From NCBI GenBank assembly GCA_009914755.4, contig CP086569.2:21856001-21920000 (forward strand): DNA of 64,000 nt, in the 5' to 3' direction. The position numbers are program-made. Shown in pieces: positions 24,001-48,000 of the stretch. Numbering within the stretch: the first letter of the stretch is position 1; every line of letters begins with the position of its first letter. This stretch comes from the human T2T-CHM13v2.0 reference genome, Homo sapiens.

Positions 24001-27000
24001 CTATGGGCAGCACCAAAACAGGAGAAAAACTTGTATCACATGGATAAAATGTCTAGCAATATGTCACAATCCTTCCTTTTGCCATGGCCCAGGCAGAAGA
24101 TGAAAGCCACATCAAATAAATGATGGATCAGCAGATACATCATAATATACCTTTAGGAGGGCCAGGCAACAGAGGAACATTGCTCAGGTGTCATACCCAG
24201 CAATATGTCACAGTACCTTGTGTATTCAGGCCACAAGCAAGAGGAGAGAGTCACATTACTTACATTCTGAGACACGTGATAGATTCCAATTTTTCTTGTG
24301 GTCAGGGCCCAGCAGTAGAGAGTCACATCATGTAAGTGCTGGGTTTGCCATATTTTTACCATTTAAGAGCAGGACCCAGTTAGGAATGTTACATGTCCTA
24401 GATGACAGGCCCAAAAATATGTTGCAATTTCACCTATTGATAAAACTTAGGGAAAAAAAGGAGGGTCATATTATGAGCTCTATACCTAGTTATATGTCAC
24501 AATGCCGTCTCTTGGAAGGGCACAAGCAGAAGAGGAGAGTAACATTACCTAGGTTCTGGGTTCAGTGATACATCACAGTCCATCTTGTGGGAAGAGCCCA
24601 GGTAGGAAAGGAGAGTCAAATCACTTTGGTATTGGGCCACAGATCATCATAATGTAATTGTAGGCAGGATCAAAGCAGAAAAGTCACAACACCTTGTTAC
24701 TGAGTCCAGCAATATATCACATTGACCCATGAAAACAAGGATTAATGTGACCTCATTGTGACATAAACTAGGAGCTGGACACAGCTATTTTTCACAATCA
24801 TATCTATGAGCAGTGCACAGAAATGAAAGGAGTATATATTACCTCAGTTCTGGAACAATGCAATATGTCACAATCCTGACTGTGGACAGGGCCAAGGTGG
24901 AGCAGGAGAGTCACATCACCTAGGTGGTGGGCCCAAAGATACATCACAAAAACTCCTGTGGGCTAAACTCAGGCAAGAGAGTCACATCACATGTGTGCTG
25001 TGCTCAGCAATTAGTCACTATCCCTTCTGTGGGAAAACCCCAAGCAAAAGAGAAGTGTTAAATCACTTACTTGCTGGGCCCAGAAATATATCAAAATTTC
25101 TTTATTTCTTTCTTTCTTTATTTTTTTTCAAGTTCTTTTCTTTTAATTTTCTTTTTTATTTTTCCACTTTTTTTTTTATTATACTTTAAGTTCTAGGGTA
25201 CATGTGCACATTGTGCAGGTTAGTTACATATGTATACATGTGCCATGCTGGTGCGCTGCACCCACTAATGTGTCATCTAGCATTAGGTATATCTCCCATT
25301 GCTATCCCTCCCCCCTCCCCCGACCCCACCACAGTCCCCAGAGTGTGATATTCCCCTTCCTGTGTCCATGTGATCTCACTGTTCAATTCCCACCTATGAG
25401 TGAGAATATGTGGTGTTTGCTTTTTTGTTCTTGCGATAGTTTACTGAGAATGATGATTTCCAATTTCATCCATGTCCCTACAAAGGACATGAACTCATCA
25501 TTTTTTATGGCTGCGTAGTATTCCATGGTTTATATGTGCCACATTTTCTTAATCCAGTCTATCATTGTTGGACATTTCGGTTGGTTCCAAGTCTTTGCTA
25601 TTGTGAATAGTGCCACAATAAACATACGTGTGCATGTGTCTTTATAGCAGCATGATTTATAAACCTTTGGGTATATACCCAGTAATGGGATGGCTGGGTC
25701 AAATGGTATTTCCAGTTCTAGATCCCTGAGGAATTGCCACACTGACTTCCACAATGGTTGAACTAGTTTACAGTCCCACCAACAGTGTAAAAGTGTTCCT
25801 ACTTCTCCACATCCTCTCCAGCACCAGTTGTTCCCTGACTTTTTAATGATGGCCATTCTAAGTGGTGTGAGATGGTATCTCATTGTGGATTTGATTTGTA
25901 TTTCTCTGATGGCCAGTGATGATGAGCATTTTTTCATGTGTTTTTTTGCTGCATAAATATCTTCTTTTGAGAAGTGTCTGTTCATATCCTTCACCCAGTT
26001 TTTGATGGGGTTGTTTGTTTTTTTCTTTTAAATTTGTTTGAGTTCATTGTAGATTCTGGATATTAGCCCTTTTTCAGATGAGTAGGTTGCGAAAATTTTC
26101 TCCCATTTTGTAGGTTGCCTGTTCACTCTGATGGTAGTTTCCTTTGTTGTGAAGAAGCTCTTTAGTTTAATTAGATCCCATTTGTCAATTTTGGCTTTTG
26201 TTGCCATTGCTTTTGGTGTTTTAGACATGAAGACCTTGCCCATGCCTATGTCCTGAATGGTACTGCCTAGGTTTTCTTCTGTGGTTTTTATGGTTTTAGA
26301 TCTAACGTTTAACTCTTTAATCCATCTTGAATTAACTTTTGTATAAGGTGTAAGAAAGGGATCCAGTTTCAGCTTTCTACATATGACTAGCTAGTTTTCC
26401 CAGCACCATTTATTAAATAGGAAATCCTTTCCCCATTGTTTGCTTTTCTCAGGTTTGTCAAAGATCAGATAGTTGTAGATATGTGGCATTATTTCTGAGG
26501 GCTCTGTTCTGTTCCATTGATCTATATTTCTGTTTTGGTACCAGTACCATGCTGTTTTGGTTACTGTAGCCTTGTAGTACTGTTTGAAGTCAGGTAGTGT
26601 GATGCCTCCAGCTTTGTCCTTTTGGCTTGGGATTGACTTGGTGATGCAGGCTCTTTTTTGGTTCCATATGAACTTTAAAGTAGTTTTTTCCAATTCTGTG
26701 AAGAAAGGCATTGGTAGCTTGATGGGGATGGAATTGAATCTTTAAATTACCTTGGGCAGTATGGCCATTTTCACAATATTGATTCTTCCTACCCATGAGC
26801 ATGGAATGTTCTTCCATTTCTTTGTATCCTCTTTTATTTCCTTGAGCAATGGTTTGTAGTTCTCCTTGAAGAGGTCCTTCACATCCCTTGTAAGTTGGAT
26901 TCCTAGGTATTTTATTCTCTTTGAAGCAATTGTGAATGGGAGTTCACTCATGATTTGGCTCTCTGTTTGTCTGTTGTTGGTGTATAAGAATGCTTACGAT

Positions 27001-45000: not shown

Positions 45001-48000
45001 GGGATGTATTTCAAAATAATAAGAGCTATCTATGACAAACCCACAGCCAATATCATCCTGAATGGGCAAAAACTGGAAGCATTCCCTTTGAAAACTGGCA
45101 CAAGACAGGGATGCCATCTCTTATCACTCCTATTCAACATAGAGTTGGAAGTTCTGGTCAGGGCAATCAGGGAGGAAAAGGAAATAAAAGTTATTCAATT
45201 AGGAAAAGAGGAAGTCAAATTGTCCCTGTTTGCAGGCGACATGATTGTATATCTAGAAAACCCCATTGTCTCAGCCCAAAATCTCCTTAAGCTGATAAGC
45301 AACTTCAGCAAAGTCTCAGGACACAAAATCAATGTACAAAAATCACTAGCATTCTTATACACCAACAACAGACAAACAGAGAGCCAAATCATGAGTGAAC
45401 TCCCATTCACAATTGCTTCAAAGAGAATAAAATACCTAGGAATCCAACTTACAAGGGACGTGAAGGACCTCTTCAAGGAGAACTACAAACCATTGCTCAA
45501 GGAAATAAAAGAGGATACAAAGAAATGGAAGAACATTCCATGCTCATGGGTAGGAAGAATCAATATCGTGAAAATGGCCCTACCACTGAAGGTAATTTAT
45601 GGATTCAATGTCATCCCCATCACGCTACCAATGACTTTCTTCACACAATTGGAAAAAGCTACTCTAAAGGTCATATGGAACCAAAAAAGAGCCCGCATCA
45701 CCAAGTCAATCCTAAGCCAAAAGAACAAAGCTGGAGGTATCACACTACCTGACTTCAAACTATACTACAAGGTTACAGTAACCAAAACAGCAGAGTACTG
45801 GTACCAAAACAGAGATATAGATCGATGGAACAGAACAGAGCCCTCAGAAATAACGACGTGTATCTACAACTATCTGATCTTTGACAAACCTGAGAAAAAC
45901 AAGCAATGAGGAAAGGATTCCCTATTTAATAAATGGTGCTGGGAAAACTGGCCAGCCATATGTAGAAAGCTGAAACTGGATCCCTTTCTTACACCTTATA
46001 CAAAAATCAATTCAAGATGGATTAAAGACCTAAACGTTATACCTAATGCCATAAAAACCACAGAAGAAAACCTAGGCATTACCATTCAGGACATAGGCAT
46101 GGGCAAGGACTTCATGTCTAAAACACCAAAAGTGATTGCAACAAAAGACAAAATTGAAAAATGGGATCTAATTAAACTAAAGAGCTTAATTATTTTTGCT
46201 TCTGCACAGCAAAAGAAACTACCATCAGAGTGAACAGGCAACCTACAAAATGGGAGAAAACTTTCACAACCTACTCATCTGAAAAAGGGCTAATAACCAG
46301 AATCTACAATGAACTCAAACAAATTTACAAGAAAAAAACAAACAACCCCATCAAAATTGGGTGAAGGACATGAACAGACATTCTCAAAGGAAGATATTTA
46401 TGCAGCCAAAAAACACATAAGAAAATGCTCACCATCACTGGCCATCGGAGAAATGCAAATCAAAACCACAATGAGATACCACCTCACACCAGTTAGAATG
46501 GTGATCATTAAAAAGTCAGGAAACAACAGGTGCTGGAGAGGATGTGGAGAAATAGGAACAGTTTTACACTGTTGGTGGGACTGTAAACTAGTTCAACCAT
46601 TGTGGAAGTCAGTGTGGCAATTCCTCAGGGATCTAGAACTAGAAATAAGATTGCACCCAGCTATCCCATTACTGGGTATATACGCAAAGGTTTATAAATC
46701 ATGTTGCTATAAAGACACATGCACACGTATGTTTATTGTGGCACTATTCACAATAGCAAAGATTTGGCACCAACCCAGATGTCTGACAATGATAGACTGG
46801 ATTAAGAAAATGTGGCACATATACACCATGGAATACTAAGCAGCCATATAAAATGATGAGTTCATGTCCTTTGCAGGGACATGGATGAAATTGGAAATCA
46901 TCATTCTCAGTAAACTATCGCAAGAACAAAAAACCAAACACCGCGTATTCTCACTCATAGGTGGGAATTGAACAATGAGAACACATGGACACAGGAAGGG
47001 GAACATCACACTCTGGGGACTGTTGTGTGGTGGGGGGAGGGGGGAGGGATGGCATTGGGAGATATACCTAATGCTAGATGATGAGTTAATGGGTGCAGCG
47101 CACCAGCAAGGCACATGTATACATATGTAACTAACCTGCACATTGTGCACATGTACCCTAAAACTTAAAGTATAATTATAACAAATTAAAAAAGGAAAAG
47201 TTAAAACAATGAGTGTATTTGGTTCAATAAATATATCTTTCTGTATTTTATAATTTTATTTAAAAATATTTTTACCTAAGGGCCAGATATTTATTCCTAT
47301 TAGCCATTCCCTAGGAGAGCCACTAGTTTAAGAGAATTATTTTTCTTGCTCTTTCTAAATGTTTTTCTGTGCTAAAATGTTACTTTGTGTTAAAATCCTC
47401 CTTTCCTTTAAAGACAACCCATCATTAAGGGTCCTGACAAAAAGCTTATTGTCCACTTTTAGAACTAGACATATGTTCATTTTGATGATTCTCTACAAGG
47501 GCCACTGAGAGTGTTCTTCTCCTTGCTCTTTCTAGACACCTATCTAAAAGTTTTTCTTGTTGAAAACATTTTTTTTTCCAAAACCATAACTGACTGTCAT
47601 CATAAGTTCTGGCACAACACTTTTCATTAGCTTTCAGTGATGGATATTTATTTGTTTTTAAGGTTCTCTAAGAGGGCCACTGATGTGAGAGAATTGATCT
47701 GGTTGTTTTTTCTAAATGCCTGTCTACAAGTGCGTTTTGAACTAAGTGTCATTTTTTTTTTAAGCAAATCACCTGCTATTAAAAATTCTAACACAAAGTT
47801 TGTTGTCAGCTGTCAGGGCTGAATATTTATTTATATTTAAGTTTATGATATTGAAAGTTTCCTAACAGGGAAATAAGTGCAACAAATTTTGTTTCTTCCT
47901 CAAAATGATTGTCTGCAAACTTTTTTTGTGTTTTGAAATTTTGTTTGTCCTAAAAGAAAATTACCCAACTTCAACAGTTCTGACACAAAACCTGTCAAAT

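What the first reader, a model, noticed from the sequence alone, without database searches (positions are those of the whole stretch)
25099..47194. Inverted pair of full-length L1PA elements sharing a ~600-bp tract of 100% identity flanked by 4-10% divergence
The two full-length L1PAs (25099-31188 minus; 41149-47194 plus) are ~12 kb apart and inverted. I read both by eye. The segment 29303-29900 is, as reverse complement, identical to ~42445-43037 (ORF1 C-terminal half plus ~70 bp upstream). Immediately 3' there are 3 differences in the last 35 bp of ORF1. The start of ORF2 differs at ~13/305 positions. The ORF1 coiled-coil region and 5' UTR differ at ~10%. Uniform post-insertion decay cannot give 0/590 next to ~4%. 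This is the signature of an intrachromosomal gene-conversion tract between inverted repeats, or a very recent patch transfer. The plus-strand copy has a perfect 14-bp target-site duplication, so it is an independent insertion rather than part of a segmental inverted duplication. The flanks of the two copies are also unrelated. Such inverted 6-kb arms are classic NAHR substrates, so the ~10-kb spacer (31.2-41.1 kb) may be inversion-polymorphic.
Basis: seen in the sequence. Interest (0 to 1): 0.55.

Follow-up and report, generated by a model that had tools for sequence, protein, structure and literature searches.

The report
Gene-conversion patch between inverted L1 copies
Two dead, independently inserted L1 retrotransposons lying head-to-head 10 kb apart differ by about 8% everywhere except an 817-bp stretch of ORF1 that is almost identical and carries the same decay mutations, which is the expected mark of a recent DNA copy-paste (gene conversion) between them; it is a clean example of a known process, not a new one.

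Summary
L1 copy A (minus strand, 25153-31187) and copy B (plus strand, 41149-47194) are 93% identical overall. They contain an exact 600-bp identical block, A 29300-29899 = B 42439-43038. That block sits inside an 817-bp tract (B 42222-43038) with only 2 differences, where about 64 are expected. Permutation tests never reach this value. The identity is not conservation. The tract carries 22 shared departures from an L1 consensus, 14 of them seen in at most 1 of about 35 comparator L1s. They include a shared CGA>TGA stop and 13 nonsynonymous changes, a neutral-decay pattern. Outside the tract both copies carry about 3-4% private neutral decay. B has a perfect 14-bp target-site duplication and the flanks of A and B are unrelated. 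They are therefore independent insertions, and this haplotype has no net inversion.

The best explanation is a recent (order 1 Myr) non-crossover gene conversion between the inverted arms, probably A to B. A second 219-bp patch in ORF2 is a possible older event. The suggested inversion polymorphism was not testable here. An assembly artefact cannot be formally excluded. The phenomenon is known, so interest is low to moderate.

The parts
25153..31187 (-). L1 copy A: full-length, dead, L1PA3-short/L1PA2-grade. An A-rich tail continues to about 25099. ORF1 is 30283-29266 and ORF2 is 29202-25383.
   Evidence: blastn to B. About 95% identity to L1 comparators end to end. RVT_1 hit. ORFs are broken. 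ORF coordinates were mapped from the comparator consensus. A lacks the ~128-bp 5'UTR segment.
41149..47194 (+). L1 copy B: full-length, dead, same grade as A. ORF1 is 42055-43072 and ORF2 is 43136-46971. It has a short poly-A tail.
   Evidence: Pfam hits to Transposase_22, Tnp_22_dsRBD, Exo_endo_phos and RVT_1. PDB human L1 ORF1p match at E = 8e-133. Coordinates.
41135..41148 (+). 5' copy of B's 14-bp target-site duplication, GAAAAGTTAAAACA.
   Evidence: Exact match found.
47195..47208 (+). 3' copy of B's 14-bp target-site duplication.
42222..43038 (+). Conversion tract in B (817 bp; ORF1 codons 56-328). The perfect 600-bp core is 42439-43038. B is the probable acceptor.
29300..30116 (-). Conversion tract in A. 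The perfect core is 29300-29899. A is the probable donor.
42443..42445 (+). Shared premature stop (CGA>TGA, ORF1 codon ~130) inside the tract. The same change is in A at 29893-29895.
   Evidence: Translations, alignment to human ORF1p, site table.
42312..42312 (+). First of the two differences inside the tract. B has T; A and the consensus have G. Probably a mutation in B after the conversion.
42438..42438 (+). Second difference inside the tract. A has A, B has G, and the consensus has T. The most economical reading is a shared derived state followed by one later A<->G transition, so the tract continues through this site.
45348..45566 (+). Possible second, shorter conversion patch in ORF2 (codons 739-812). 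It equals A 26776-26994 and has 219 bp with 1 difference.
   Evidence: p < 1e-4 by position permutation, but p = 0.048 when clustered mismatches are collapsed. Only 2 shared strictly private variants.
43162..43282 (+). 121-bp identical run just 3' of the tract (= A 29056-29176). Weak evidence only.
   Evidence: p = 0.01-0.02 and p = 0.47 after cluster collapse.
31188..41148 (.). 9,961-bp spacer between the two L1 5' ends. It contains Alu-like copies. This is the segment that a crossover between the arms would invert.

Best explanation
**What it is.** Two full-length L1 elements of the ZNF93-escape grade (L1PA3-short or L1PA2) inserted independently, head-to-head and about 10 kb apart, in a great-ape (probably human) genome. 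Each then decayed neutrally by about 3-4%.

**How it most likely arose.** Much later, a DNA break in the ORF1 region of one copy was repaired by homologous recombination, with the inverted neighbour 12 kb away as template. B was probably the broken copy. The event resolved without crossover (synthesis-dependent strand annealing or an equivalent route). About 0.8 kb of the donor, including the donor's own decay mutations and a premature stop codon, overwrote the acceptor. Two substitutions have accumulated in the tract since, so the event is recent: order 1 Myr, and roughly <5 Myr.

**Shown.** The tract and its significance. The shared neutral decay inside it. The neutral private decay outside it. 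The independent insertion of B. The absence of any net inversion.

**Inferred.** The repair pathway, the A-to-B direction, and the date.
For: 1. **Tract and statistics.** 600 bp are exact and 817 bp have 2 differences, against a 7.9% background. No permutation reaches these values.
2. **Shared variants are private to these two copies.** Inside the tract A and B share 22 departures from the consensus of 35 comparator L1s. Fourteen of them occur in at most 1 comparator. For 13 of the 21 shared sites tested, the 21-mer around the site is absent from all 80 fetched L1 loci; in the window these 21-mers occur only in A and B, two of them in B alone because an adjacent A/B difference falls within the 21-mer.
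3. **The shared variants look like neutral decay.** They comprise 16 nonsynonymous, 5 synonymous and 1 stop; 13 of the 14 strictly private ones are nonsynonymous. Non-CpG shared private variants are 3.2 times denser inside the tract than outside (p = 0.001). Outside the tract, shared private variants are mainly S>W changes (26:5), consistent with parallel decay. Inside the tract the ratio is 5:6.
4. **Private substitutions in ORF2 are neutral.** Synonymous counts equal the neutral expectation, and there are 7 new stops in A and 6 in B. The copies had therefore been decaying for a long time, and 0/600 cannot be slow decay.
5. **Independent insertions.** B has a perfect 14-bp target-site duplication in the correct arrangement, and the flanks are unrelated. 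This excludes a segmental duplication and any net inversion.
6. **Direction.**
   - In the 271 bp just 5' of the tract, A is 6-9 differences from the comparators and B is 21-23.
   - The tract itself is about 2.2-2.7% from the best comparators, like A's flank.
   - The shared-private density in the tract (1.7%) is nearer A's private density (2.8%) than B's (4.1%).
7. **The process is documented.**
   - Non-allelic gene conversion between nearby transposable-element copies is known (PMC6598467, citing Aleshin & Zhi 2010, reports elevated rates within <10 kb).
   - Break repair by L1-L1 gene conversion has been shown (Tremblay et al. 2000, as cited in PMC1920257).
Against: - **The tract is cleaner than expected.** It has 13 non-CpG shared private variants, against about 29 expected if A's average decay had been copied and about 38 for B. 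This may reflect recombination succeeding where the copies were locally least diverged, an older event, or overdispersion (variance/mean of about 2.2, by hand from the per-200-bp counts). It is not explained with certainty.
- **No independent confirmation.** No second assembly or raw reads were available (searches found nothing), so an assembly or polishing artefact is not formally excluded.
- **Direction is indirect.** It rests on local density arguments only.
- **High divergence.** About 8% is high for efficient mammalian homologous recombination (established knowledge), which makes the event uncommon but not impossible.
Confidence: 0.87

Rival explanations
1. Assembly or polishing artefact. 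Reads from one L1 arm were mis-assigned to the other during consensus building, so about 0.8 kb was homogenised in silico.
For: The origin and assembly method of the window are unknown. No independent copy of the locus could be retrieved. A sharply bounded identical patch inside a repeat is what local mis-polishing could also produce.
Against: - Mis-mapped reads in a genome holding thousands of similar L1 copies (established knowledge) should pull the sequence toward the family consensus. Here the tract carries 14 variants that are near-private to these two copies.
- The two internal differences look like later mutations. At 42438 the site has three states: consensus T, A in copy A, G in copy B.
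- The 3' boundary is single-base sharp and lies next to normal divergence.
Confidence: 0.05
2. Third-party donor. A younger or less decayed L1 elsewhere converted both A and B, or converted A first and A then converted B. The A-B identity would then be the overlap of two tracts rather than one direct exchange.
For: The tract is about twice as clean as either copy's average. A stays clean for about 270 bp beyond the 5' boundary.
Against: - It needs two events where one suffices.
- The 14 near-private variants occur in none of the 80 L1 loci chosen as the best matches to the tract.
- Subfamily-level (polymorphic) shared sites are no rarer inside the tract (0.98%) than outside (0.83%).
Confidence: 0.05
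3. No transfer at all. The ORF1 C-terminal part is strongly conserved among L1PA subfamilies, or is a mutational cold spot, so two copies can stay identical there by descent.
For: Most of the tract covers the RRM and C-terminal domains of ORF1p, on which the Pfam L1 ORF1 domain models are built.
Against: - Both copies are dead, and decay in ORF2 is neutral.
- The tract itself holds a shared stop and 13 private nonsynonymous changes, so it was not under selection.
- A 30-fold local drop in neutral divergence (0.24% against 7.9%) with single-base edges is not a cold spot. The probabilities are 6e-13 to 3e-21.
Confidence: 0.01
4. RNA- or cDNA-templated repair. A transcript (or its cDNA) of one copy, rather than its chromosomal DNA, served as the template that patched the other copy.
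For: Nothing specific supports it. The sequence outcome would be indistinguishable. cDNA-mediated conversion is known for yeast Ty elements (established knowledge).
Against: - There is no poly-A, no 3' bias and no intron-type signature. The patch is internal, in ORF1.
- The donor and acceptor are immediate neighbours, which is what DNA-templated recombination predicts: it is proximity-dependent (PMC6598467). A diffusible RNA predicts no such preference.
Confidence: 0.02

Closest known systems
Non-allelic (ectopic) gene conversion between dispersed retrotransposon copies. Examples are Alu-Alu conversion (Kass et al. 1995; Aleshin & Zhi 2010, as reviewed in PMC6598467 and PMC8230782) and L1-L1 conversion after a double-strand break (Tremblay, Jasin & Chartrand 2000, cited in PMC1920257).
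   Same: - A short non-reciprocal tract (0.2-1 kb scale) passes between two diverged copies of one repeat family.
- The donor's private mutations are copied.
- Physical proximity (about 10 kb) fits the reported excess for copies less than 10 kb apart.
   Different: - The partners here are full-length 6-kb L1s in inverted orientation.
- Both donor and acceptor lie in the same window, so the pair is identified directly rather than inferred from subfamily-diagnostic sites.
Arm-to-arm gene conversion in palindromes and inverted segmental duplications, such as the Y-chromosome palindromes (established knowledge: Rozen et al. 2003).
   Same: Intrachromosomal non-crossover exchange between inverted arms separated by a spacer. 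A crossover outcome would invert the spacer.
   Different: - Palindrome arms come from duplication and are kept at >99.9% identity along their whole length by frequent conversion.
- Here the arms are independent insertions that are about 8% diverged, with one clear patch and possibly 1-2 minor ones. This is not concerted evolution of the whole arm.
L1-mediated inversions by recombination between inverted L1 pairs (TE-mediated rearrangements, PMC9675761).
   Same: The substrate architecture is the same: oppositely oriented L1s a few kb apart. All 8 L1-mediated inversions in that study lay between inverted L1s.
   Different: - This is the non-crossover outcome. B's target-site duplication is intact on both sides, so there is no net inversion.
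- The median similarity of L1 pairs at reported inversions was 97.1%. This pair is 93% identical.

Membership tests
LINE-1 (L1) retrotransposon, primate L1PA lineage | ORF1 encoding the L1 ORF1p RRM and C-terminal domains | tested here: met
   Pfam Transposase_22 (E = 6e-62) and Tnp_22_dsRBD (E = 1e-44). Human L1 ORF1p structure 2yko matches at E = 8e-133.
LINE-1 (L1) retrotransposon, primate L1PA lineage | ORF2 with an APE-type endonuclease and a reverse transcriptase | tested here: met
   Exo_endo_phos and RVT_1 hits on ORF2 fragments of B, and RVT_1 on A. The comparator consensus aligned to both copies has an intact 1275-aa ORF2.
LINE-1 (L1) retrotransposon, primate L1PA lineage | Full-length ~6-kb structure with a 5'UTR, a 3' poly-A and a target-site duplication | tested here: met
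   Both copies are colinear over about 6.04-6.06 kb with full-length comparators. Both have A-rich tails. B has a perfect 14-bp duplication. For A only a weak A-rich candidate was found.
L1PA3-short or younger (ZNF93-escape grade) | Absence of the 129-bp 5'UTR segment that carries the ZNF93 binding site (bioRxiv 10.1101/429613) | tested here: met
   At least 10 comparator loci carry an extra ~128 bp at A position ~777 that both A and B lack.
L1PA3-short or younger (ZNF93-escape grade) | Exact Repbase/Dfam subfamily assignment from diagnostic positions | not testable with these tools
   No Repbase or Dfam consensus library is available. The comparators are chimeric metagenome assemblies.
Non-allelic gene conversion tract | A run of identity between two paralogues that is significantly longer than the surrounding divergence allows (Sawyer/GENECONV criterion) | tested here: met
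   Runs of 73, 51 and 39 concordant polymorphic sites, against a largest value of 28 in 20,000 permutations. Position permutations give p < 1e-4.
Non-allelic gene conversion tract | Shared derived (post-insertion) mutations inside the tract, not merely ancestral identity | tested here: met
   14 near-private shared variants, a shared stop, a neutral nonsynonymous/synonymous pattern, and 3.2-fold enrichment of non-CpG shared private variants.
Non-allelic gene conversion tract | The paralogues are independent loci (non-allelic, and not a recent duplication) | tested here: met
   Unrelated flanks, B's own target-site duplication, and about 8% divergence elsewhere.
Non-allelic gene conversion tract | The pre-conversion state of the acceptor is seen in an outgroup or another haplotype, which gives direction and date | not testable with these tools
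   No primate or human genome collection is searchable here. Look-ups found nothing.
L1-mediated inversion polymorphism (NAHR) | Inverted spacer, with chimeric L1s and split target-site duplications in some haplotype | tested here: not met
   In this haplotype both copies of B's duplication flank B in the correct orientation. Private-mutation densities are continuous across the tract in each copy. Other haplotypes could not be examined.

The most novel reading that the evidence does not exclude
The pair may be a recurrently exchanging inverted L1 couple rather than the site of one accident. There would then be at least two or three patches of different ages (817 bp in ORF1, 219 bp in ORF2, perhaps 121 bp at the ORF2 start). 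The converted segments are about half as decayed as the rest of either copy. That would mean either that exchange is confined to locally least-diverged segments, or that repair (GC-biased, or templated by a younger third L1) partially 'rejuvenates' dead L1 sequence. Such a locus would also be a good candidate for a recurrent, toggling 10-kb inversion in the population.
Probability: 0.15. Interest if true: 0.4.

Novelty: new member of a known kind. Interest (0 to 1): 0.25.

Why it matters
This is a clean, internally controlled example of ectopic gene conversion between two old, roughly 8% diverged L1 copies. Donor and acceptor are both in view, and the copied decay mutations prove the transfer. 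Three practical consequences follow:
- Divergence-based ages and subfamily calls for transposable elements can be locally wrong.
- A perfect 600-bp inverted repeat confounds short-read mapping at this locus.
- Recombination machinery has engaged these arms, which makes the 10-kb spacer a reasonable candidate for an inversion polymorphism.

It does not change current understanding of L1 biology or of recombination.

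Tried and rejected
1. **Independent copies of the locus.** I looked up three ORF products of A and B by exact protein. 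I also searched a 34-mer carrying three tract-private variants in the bacterial/archaeal genome contigs and in the viral contigs. Nothing was found, so artefact versus biology could not be settled with independent data.
2. **Regional mutability.** I tried to calibrate it from singleton variants in the comparators. The comparators are collapsed metagenome assemblies with almost no singletons, so they were uninformative.
3. **Subfamily phasing.** I tried to phase the comparators into subfamilies, to type the tract and infer the donor. The comparators are mosaics, so I abandoned this.
4. **Recombination and RNA motifs.** The PRDM9 13-mer occurs only in the G-rich 3'UTR stretches, not near the tract. 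Rfam gave no hits.
5. **Target-site duplication of A.** Only an 11-bp A-rich match with one mismatch was found. Swapped-duplication tests for a past inversion were negative.
6. **GC-biased conversion.** S>W:W>S is 7:11 in the tract and 183:114 in the flanks, p = 0.08. This is not significant.
7. **Lineage-specific variation.** I tested whether 'private' differences are variants of active source elements rather than decay. This was rejected: synonymous counts equal the neutral expectation and there are many new stops.
8. **Second tract.** It is significant under a uniform model but only p = 0.048 after collapsing clustered mismatches. I kept it as suggestive only.

Full report
**Observation**

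The window contains two full-length L1 elements in inverted, head-to-head orientation.
- Copy A lies on the minus strand at 25153-31187, with an A-rich tail running to about 25099.
- Copy B lies on the plus strand at 41149-47194.
- blastn aligns them at 92.96% identity over 6066 columns.
- A global MAFFT alignment shows most 100-column windows at 86-97% identity, except around ORF1.
- The longest exact run is 600 bp, A 29899..29300 = B 42439..43038. The next longest is 125 bp.

From B 42222 to 43038 (817 bp) there are only two differences, at 42312 and 42438. The 3' edge is sharp, with differences at 43039, 43048 and 43051. The 5' edge abuts a very diverged stretch, with 18 differences in 42096-42221. 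The repeat finder independently reports the ORF1 arm as one of the most similar.

**Is it more than chance?**

Outside the tract, 7.9% of columns carry a substitution or a gap opening.
- P(no event in 600 bp) is 3e-21.
- With all mismatches no more than 5 bp apart collapsed into single events, a very conservative treatment, it is 6e-13.
- In 10,000 position permutations the longest identical run never exceeds 226 bp. The longest window with at most 2 differences never exceeds 302 bp.
- I also ran a Sawyer/GENECONV-type test on 1096 sites that are polymorphic among A, B and 35 comparator L1s. It gives concordant runs of 73, 51 and 39 sites for the three adjacent pieces of the tract. The largest value in 20,000 permutations is 28.

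**What the elements are**

Both are L1.
- ORF1 fragments hit Transposase_22 and Tnp_22_dsRBD. ORF2 fragments hit Exo_endo_phos and RVT_1.
- The ORF1 translation matches the human L1 ORF1p crystal structure at E = 8e-133.

To obtain comparators I fetched 80 L1 loci that contaminate public metagenome assemblies.
- Thirty-five of them, 97-99% identical to each other, were aligned with A and B.
- Their consensus has intact ORF1 (338 aa) and ORF2 (1275 aa).
- A is about 95% identical to them and B about 94%.
- Both copies lack a ~128-bp 5'UTR segment that at least ten comparator loci carry.
- That segment corresponds to the 129-bp ZNF93-escape deletion fixed in L1PA3 and younger families of great apes (bioRxiv 10.1101/429613). 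A and B are therefore L1PA3-short/L1PA2 grade, and the genome is a great ape's, probably human.
- Both copies are dead, with ORFs broken into many pieces.

**Independent insertions and no net inversion**

- B is flanked by a perfect 14-bp target-site duplication, GAAAAGTTAAAACA, at 41135-41148 and 47195-47208.
- A has no convincing duplication, only an A-rich 11-mer with one mismatch.
- The flanks of A and B share nothing, and the bodies differ by about 8%. This is not a segmental inverted duplication.
- A crossover between the arms would have moved B's 5' duplication copy next to A. The intact pair therefore shows that this haplotype has no net inversion.

**Why the identity is a transfer and not conservation**

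I classified every site against the comparator consensus. Results outside the tract:
- A has 2.8% strictly private differences, meaning the allele occurs in at most 1 comparator.
- B has 4.1% strictly private differences.
- The two copies share 0.70% strictly private variants and 0.83% subfamily-polymorphic variants.

In ORF2 the private substitutions are neutral.
- Synonymous counts are 28 in A and 31 in B, against neutral expectations of 28.6 and 36.3.
- They have created 7 premature stops in A and 6 in B.

Both copies had therefore been decaying freely for a long time.

Results inside the tract:
- There are no A-private sites, one B-private site, and one three-state site.
- There are 22 shared departures from the consensus, 14 of them strictly private.
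- For 13 of the 21 shared sites tested, the 21-mer around the site is absent from all 80 fetched L1 loci; in the window they are found only in A and B (two only in B, where a neighbouring A/B difference falls inside the 21-mer).
- The shared variants include a CGA>TGA stop at 42443.
- They are 16 nonsynonymous, 5 synonymous and 1 stop. Thirteen of the 14 strictly private ones are nonsynonymous. This is neutral decay, not selection.
- Non-CpG shared private variants are 3.2 times denser inside the tract than outside (p = 0.001).
- Outside the tract the few shared private variants are mostly S>W changes (26:5), as parallel decay at mutable sites would give. Inside the tract the ratio is 5:6.

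So one decayed copy's sequence, with its damage, now sits in both places.

**Mechanism, direction and date**

A reciprocal exchange would swap segments rather than make them identical, so the event was non-reciprocal. That means gene conversion: homologous repair of a break using the inverted neighbour as template, resolved without crossover.

Direction is probably A to B.
- In the 271 bp just 5' of the tract, A is 6-9 differences from the comparators and B is 21-23.
- The tract is 2.2-2.7% from the best comparators, like A's flank.
- The shared-private density in the tract (1.7%) is closer to A's private density than to B's.

The site 42438 has three states: consensus T, A in copy A, G in copy B. 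This is most simply a copied derived base followed by one later transition, so the tract runs through that site.

Two later substitutions in 817 bp give 0.24% divergence. Taking human-chimpanzee divergence as about 1.2% over about 6.5 Myr (established knowledge), this is roughly 1.3 Myr. The Poisson range is about 0.2-5 Myr. This date is an inference.

**Unexplained detail**

The tract is cleaner than expected.
- It has 13 non-CpG shared private variants. About 29 are expected if A's average decay was copied, and about 38 for B.
- Counts per 200 bp are overdispersed, so this is suggestive rather than decisive.
- Possible reasons are that recombination succeeds where the copies were locally least diverged, that an earlier conversion of A's ORF1 came from a younger L1, or chance.
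- A GC-bias trend is not significant (p = 0.08).

**Possible further patches**

- B 45348-45566 (= A 26776-26994; 219 bp, 1 difference) is significant under a uniform model (p < 1e-4). It is only p = 0.048 after collapsing clustered mismatches.
- B 43162-43282 (121 bp) is weak.

**Comparison with what is known**

- Non-allelic gene conversion between transposable-element copies is well documented, mainly for Alu. Rates are higher for copies closer than 10 kb (PMC6598467, PMC8230782).
- L1-L1 conversion during break repair was shown in mouse cells (Tremblay et al. 2000, cited in PMC1920257).
- Intrachromosomal conversion within human L1 loci has been reported (PMC1920257).
- Inverted L1 pairs mediate polymorphic inversions in humans (PMC9675761).

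This locus is a new, unusually clear instance of a known process.

**Limits**

No human or ape genome collection was searchable.
- Exact-protein look-ups and k-mer scans found no independent copy of the locus.
- An assembly artefact therefore cannot be formally excluded. It is unlikely, because mis-polishing should pull the sequence toward the family consensus rather than copy a neighbour's private mutations.
- Exact Repbase subfamily names could not be assigned.

Noticed in passing
window 49698-59025 (+): A class-I (gamma-retrovirus-like, HERV-H-like) endogenous retrovirus provirus. The LTRs at 49698-50199 and 58524-59025 are 88% identical, and each has ~50-bp tandem units. Internal ORFs hit RNase_H, rve and TLV_coat. 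The plus strand has strong C-over-G skew (-0.23 to -0.38). An extra inverted LTR-like piece lies at 56882-57213.
   Followed up: partly
window 45348-45566 (= 26776-26994 on the minus strand): A second stretch of near identity between the two L1s, in ORF2 (219 bp, 1 difference). It may be an older, shorter conversion patch. It is significant under a uniform model but only marginal (p = 0.048) after collapsing clustered mismatches.
   Followed up: yes
window 42222-43038 and 41950-42221: The converted tract, and copy A's adjoining 270 bp, carry about half the decay density of the rest of either element. This is unexplained. Candidate reasons are ascertainment for locally similar segments, an older conversion, or chance.
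   Followed up: partly
window ~30410 (A) and ~41925 (B), 5'UTR position ~777: Both L1s lack a ~128-bp 5'UTR segment that many comparator L1 loci carry. This matches the ZNF93-escape deletion of L1PA3-short and younger families, and places the window in a great-ape genome (bioRxiv 10.1101/429613).
   Followed up: yes
window 42061 (B) / 30277 (A): Both copies share a +1 A insertion in the A-run just after the ORF1 start codon, 160 bp outside the tract. It frameshifts ORF1 at codon 3. The cause could be parallel homopolymer slippage or shared ancestry.
   Followed up: no
window 42156-42161: Five substitutions within 6 bp, private to copy B (GG.TGG > CA.CAA), just 5' of the tract. This looks like a complex multi-nucleotide mutation.
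   Followed up: no
window 1-3646 (-) and 63446-64000 (-): Two further L1 pieces. One is an old copy, 74-78% identical to A and B, covering ORF1 and ORF2. The other is the 3' end of another young L1, 93.5% identical to A's 3' end and cut off by the window end.
   Followed up: no
window 31331-31612, 38056-39042, 48622-48865, 59786-60649: Alu-like SINE copies, mutually 74-80% identical. Two or three of them lie in the spacer between the L1s. There is a pure 45-A run at 38820-38864 and an (AAGG)n microsatellite at 34097-34225.
   Followed up: no
loci L001-L080: Public metagenome assemblies (human gut, oral, and even marine) contain hundreds of human L1 contigs. Many are mosaic or collapsed consensus assemblies of L1HS/L1PA2/L1PA3. 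They are usable as rough consensus comparators but not as true single copies.
   Followed up: partly
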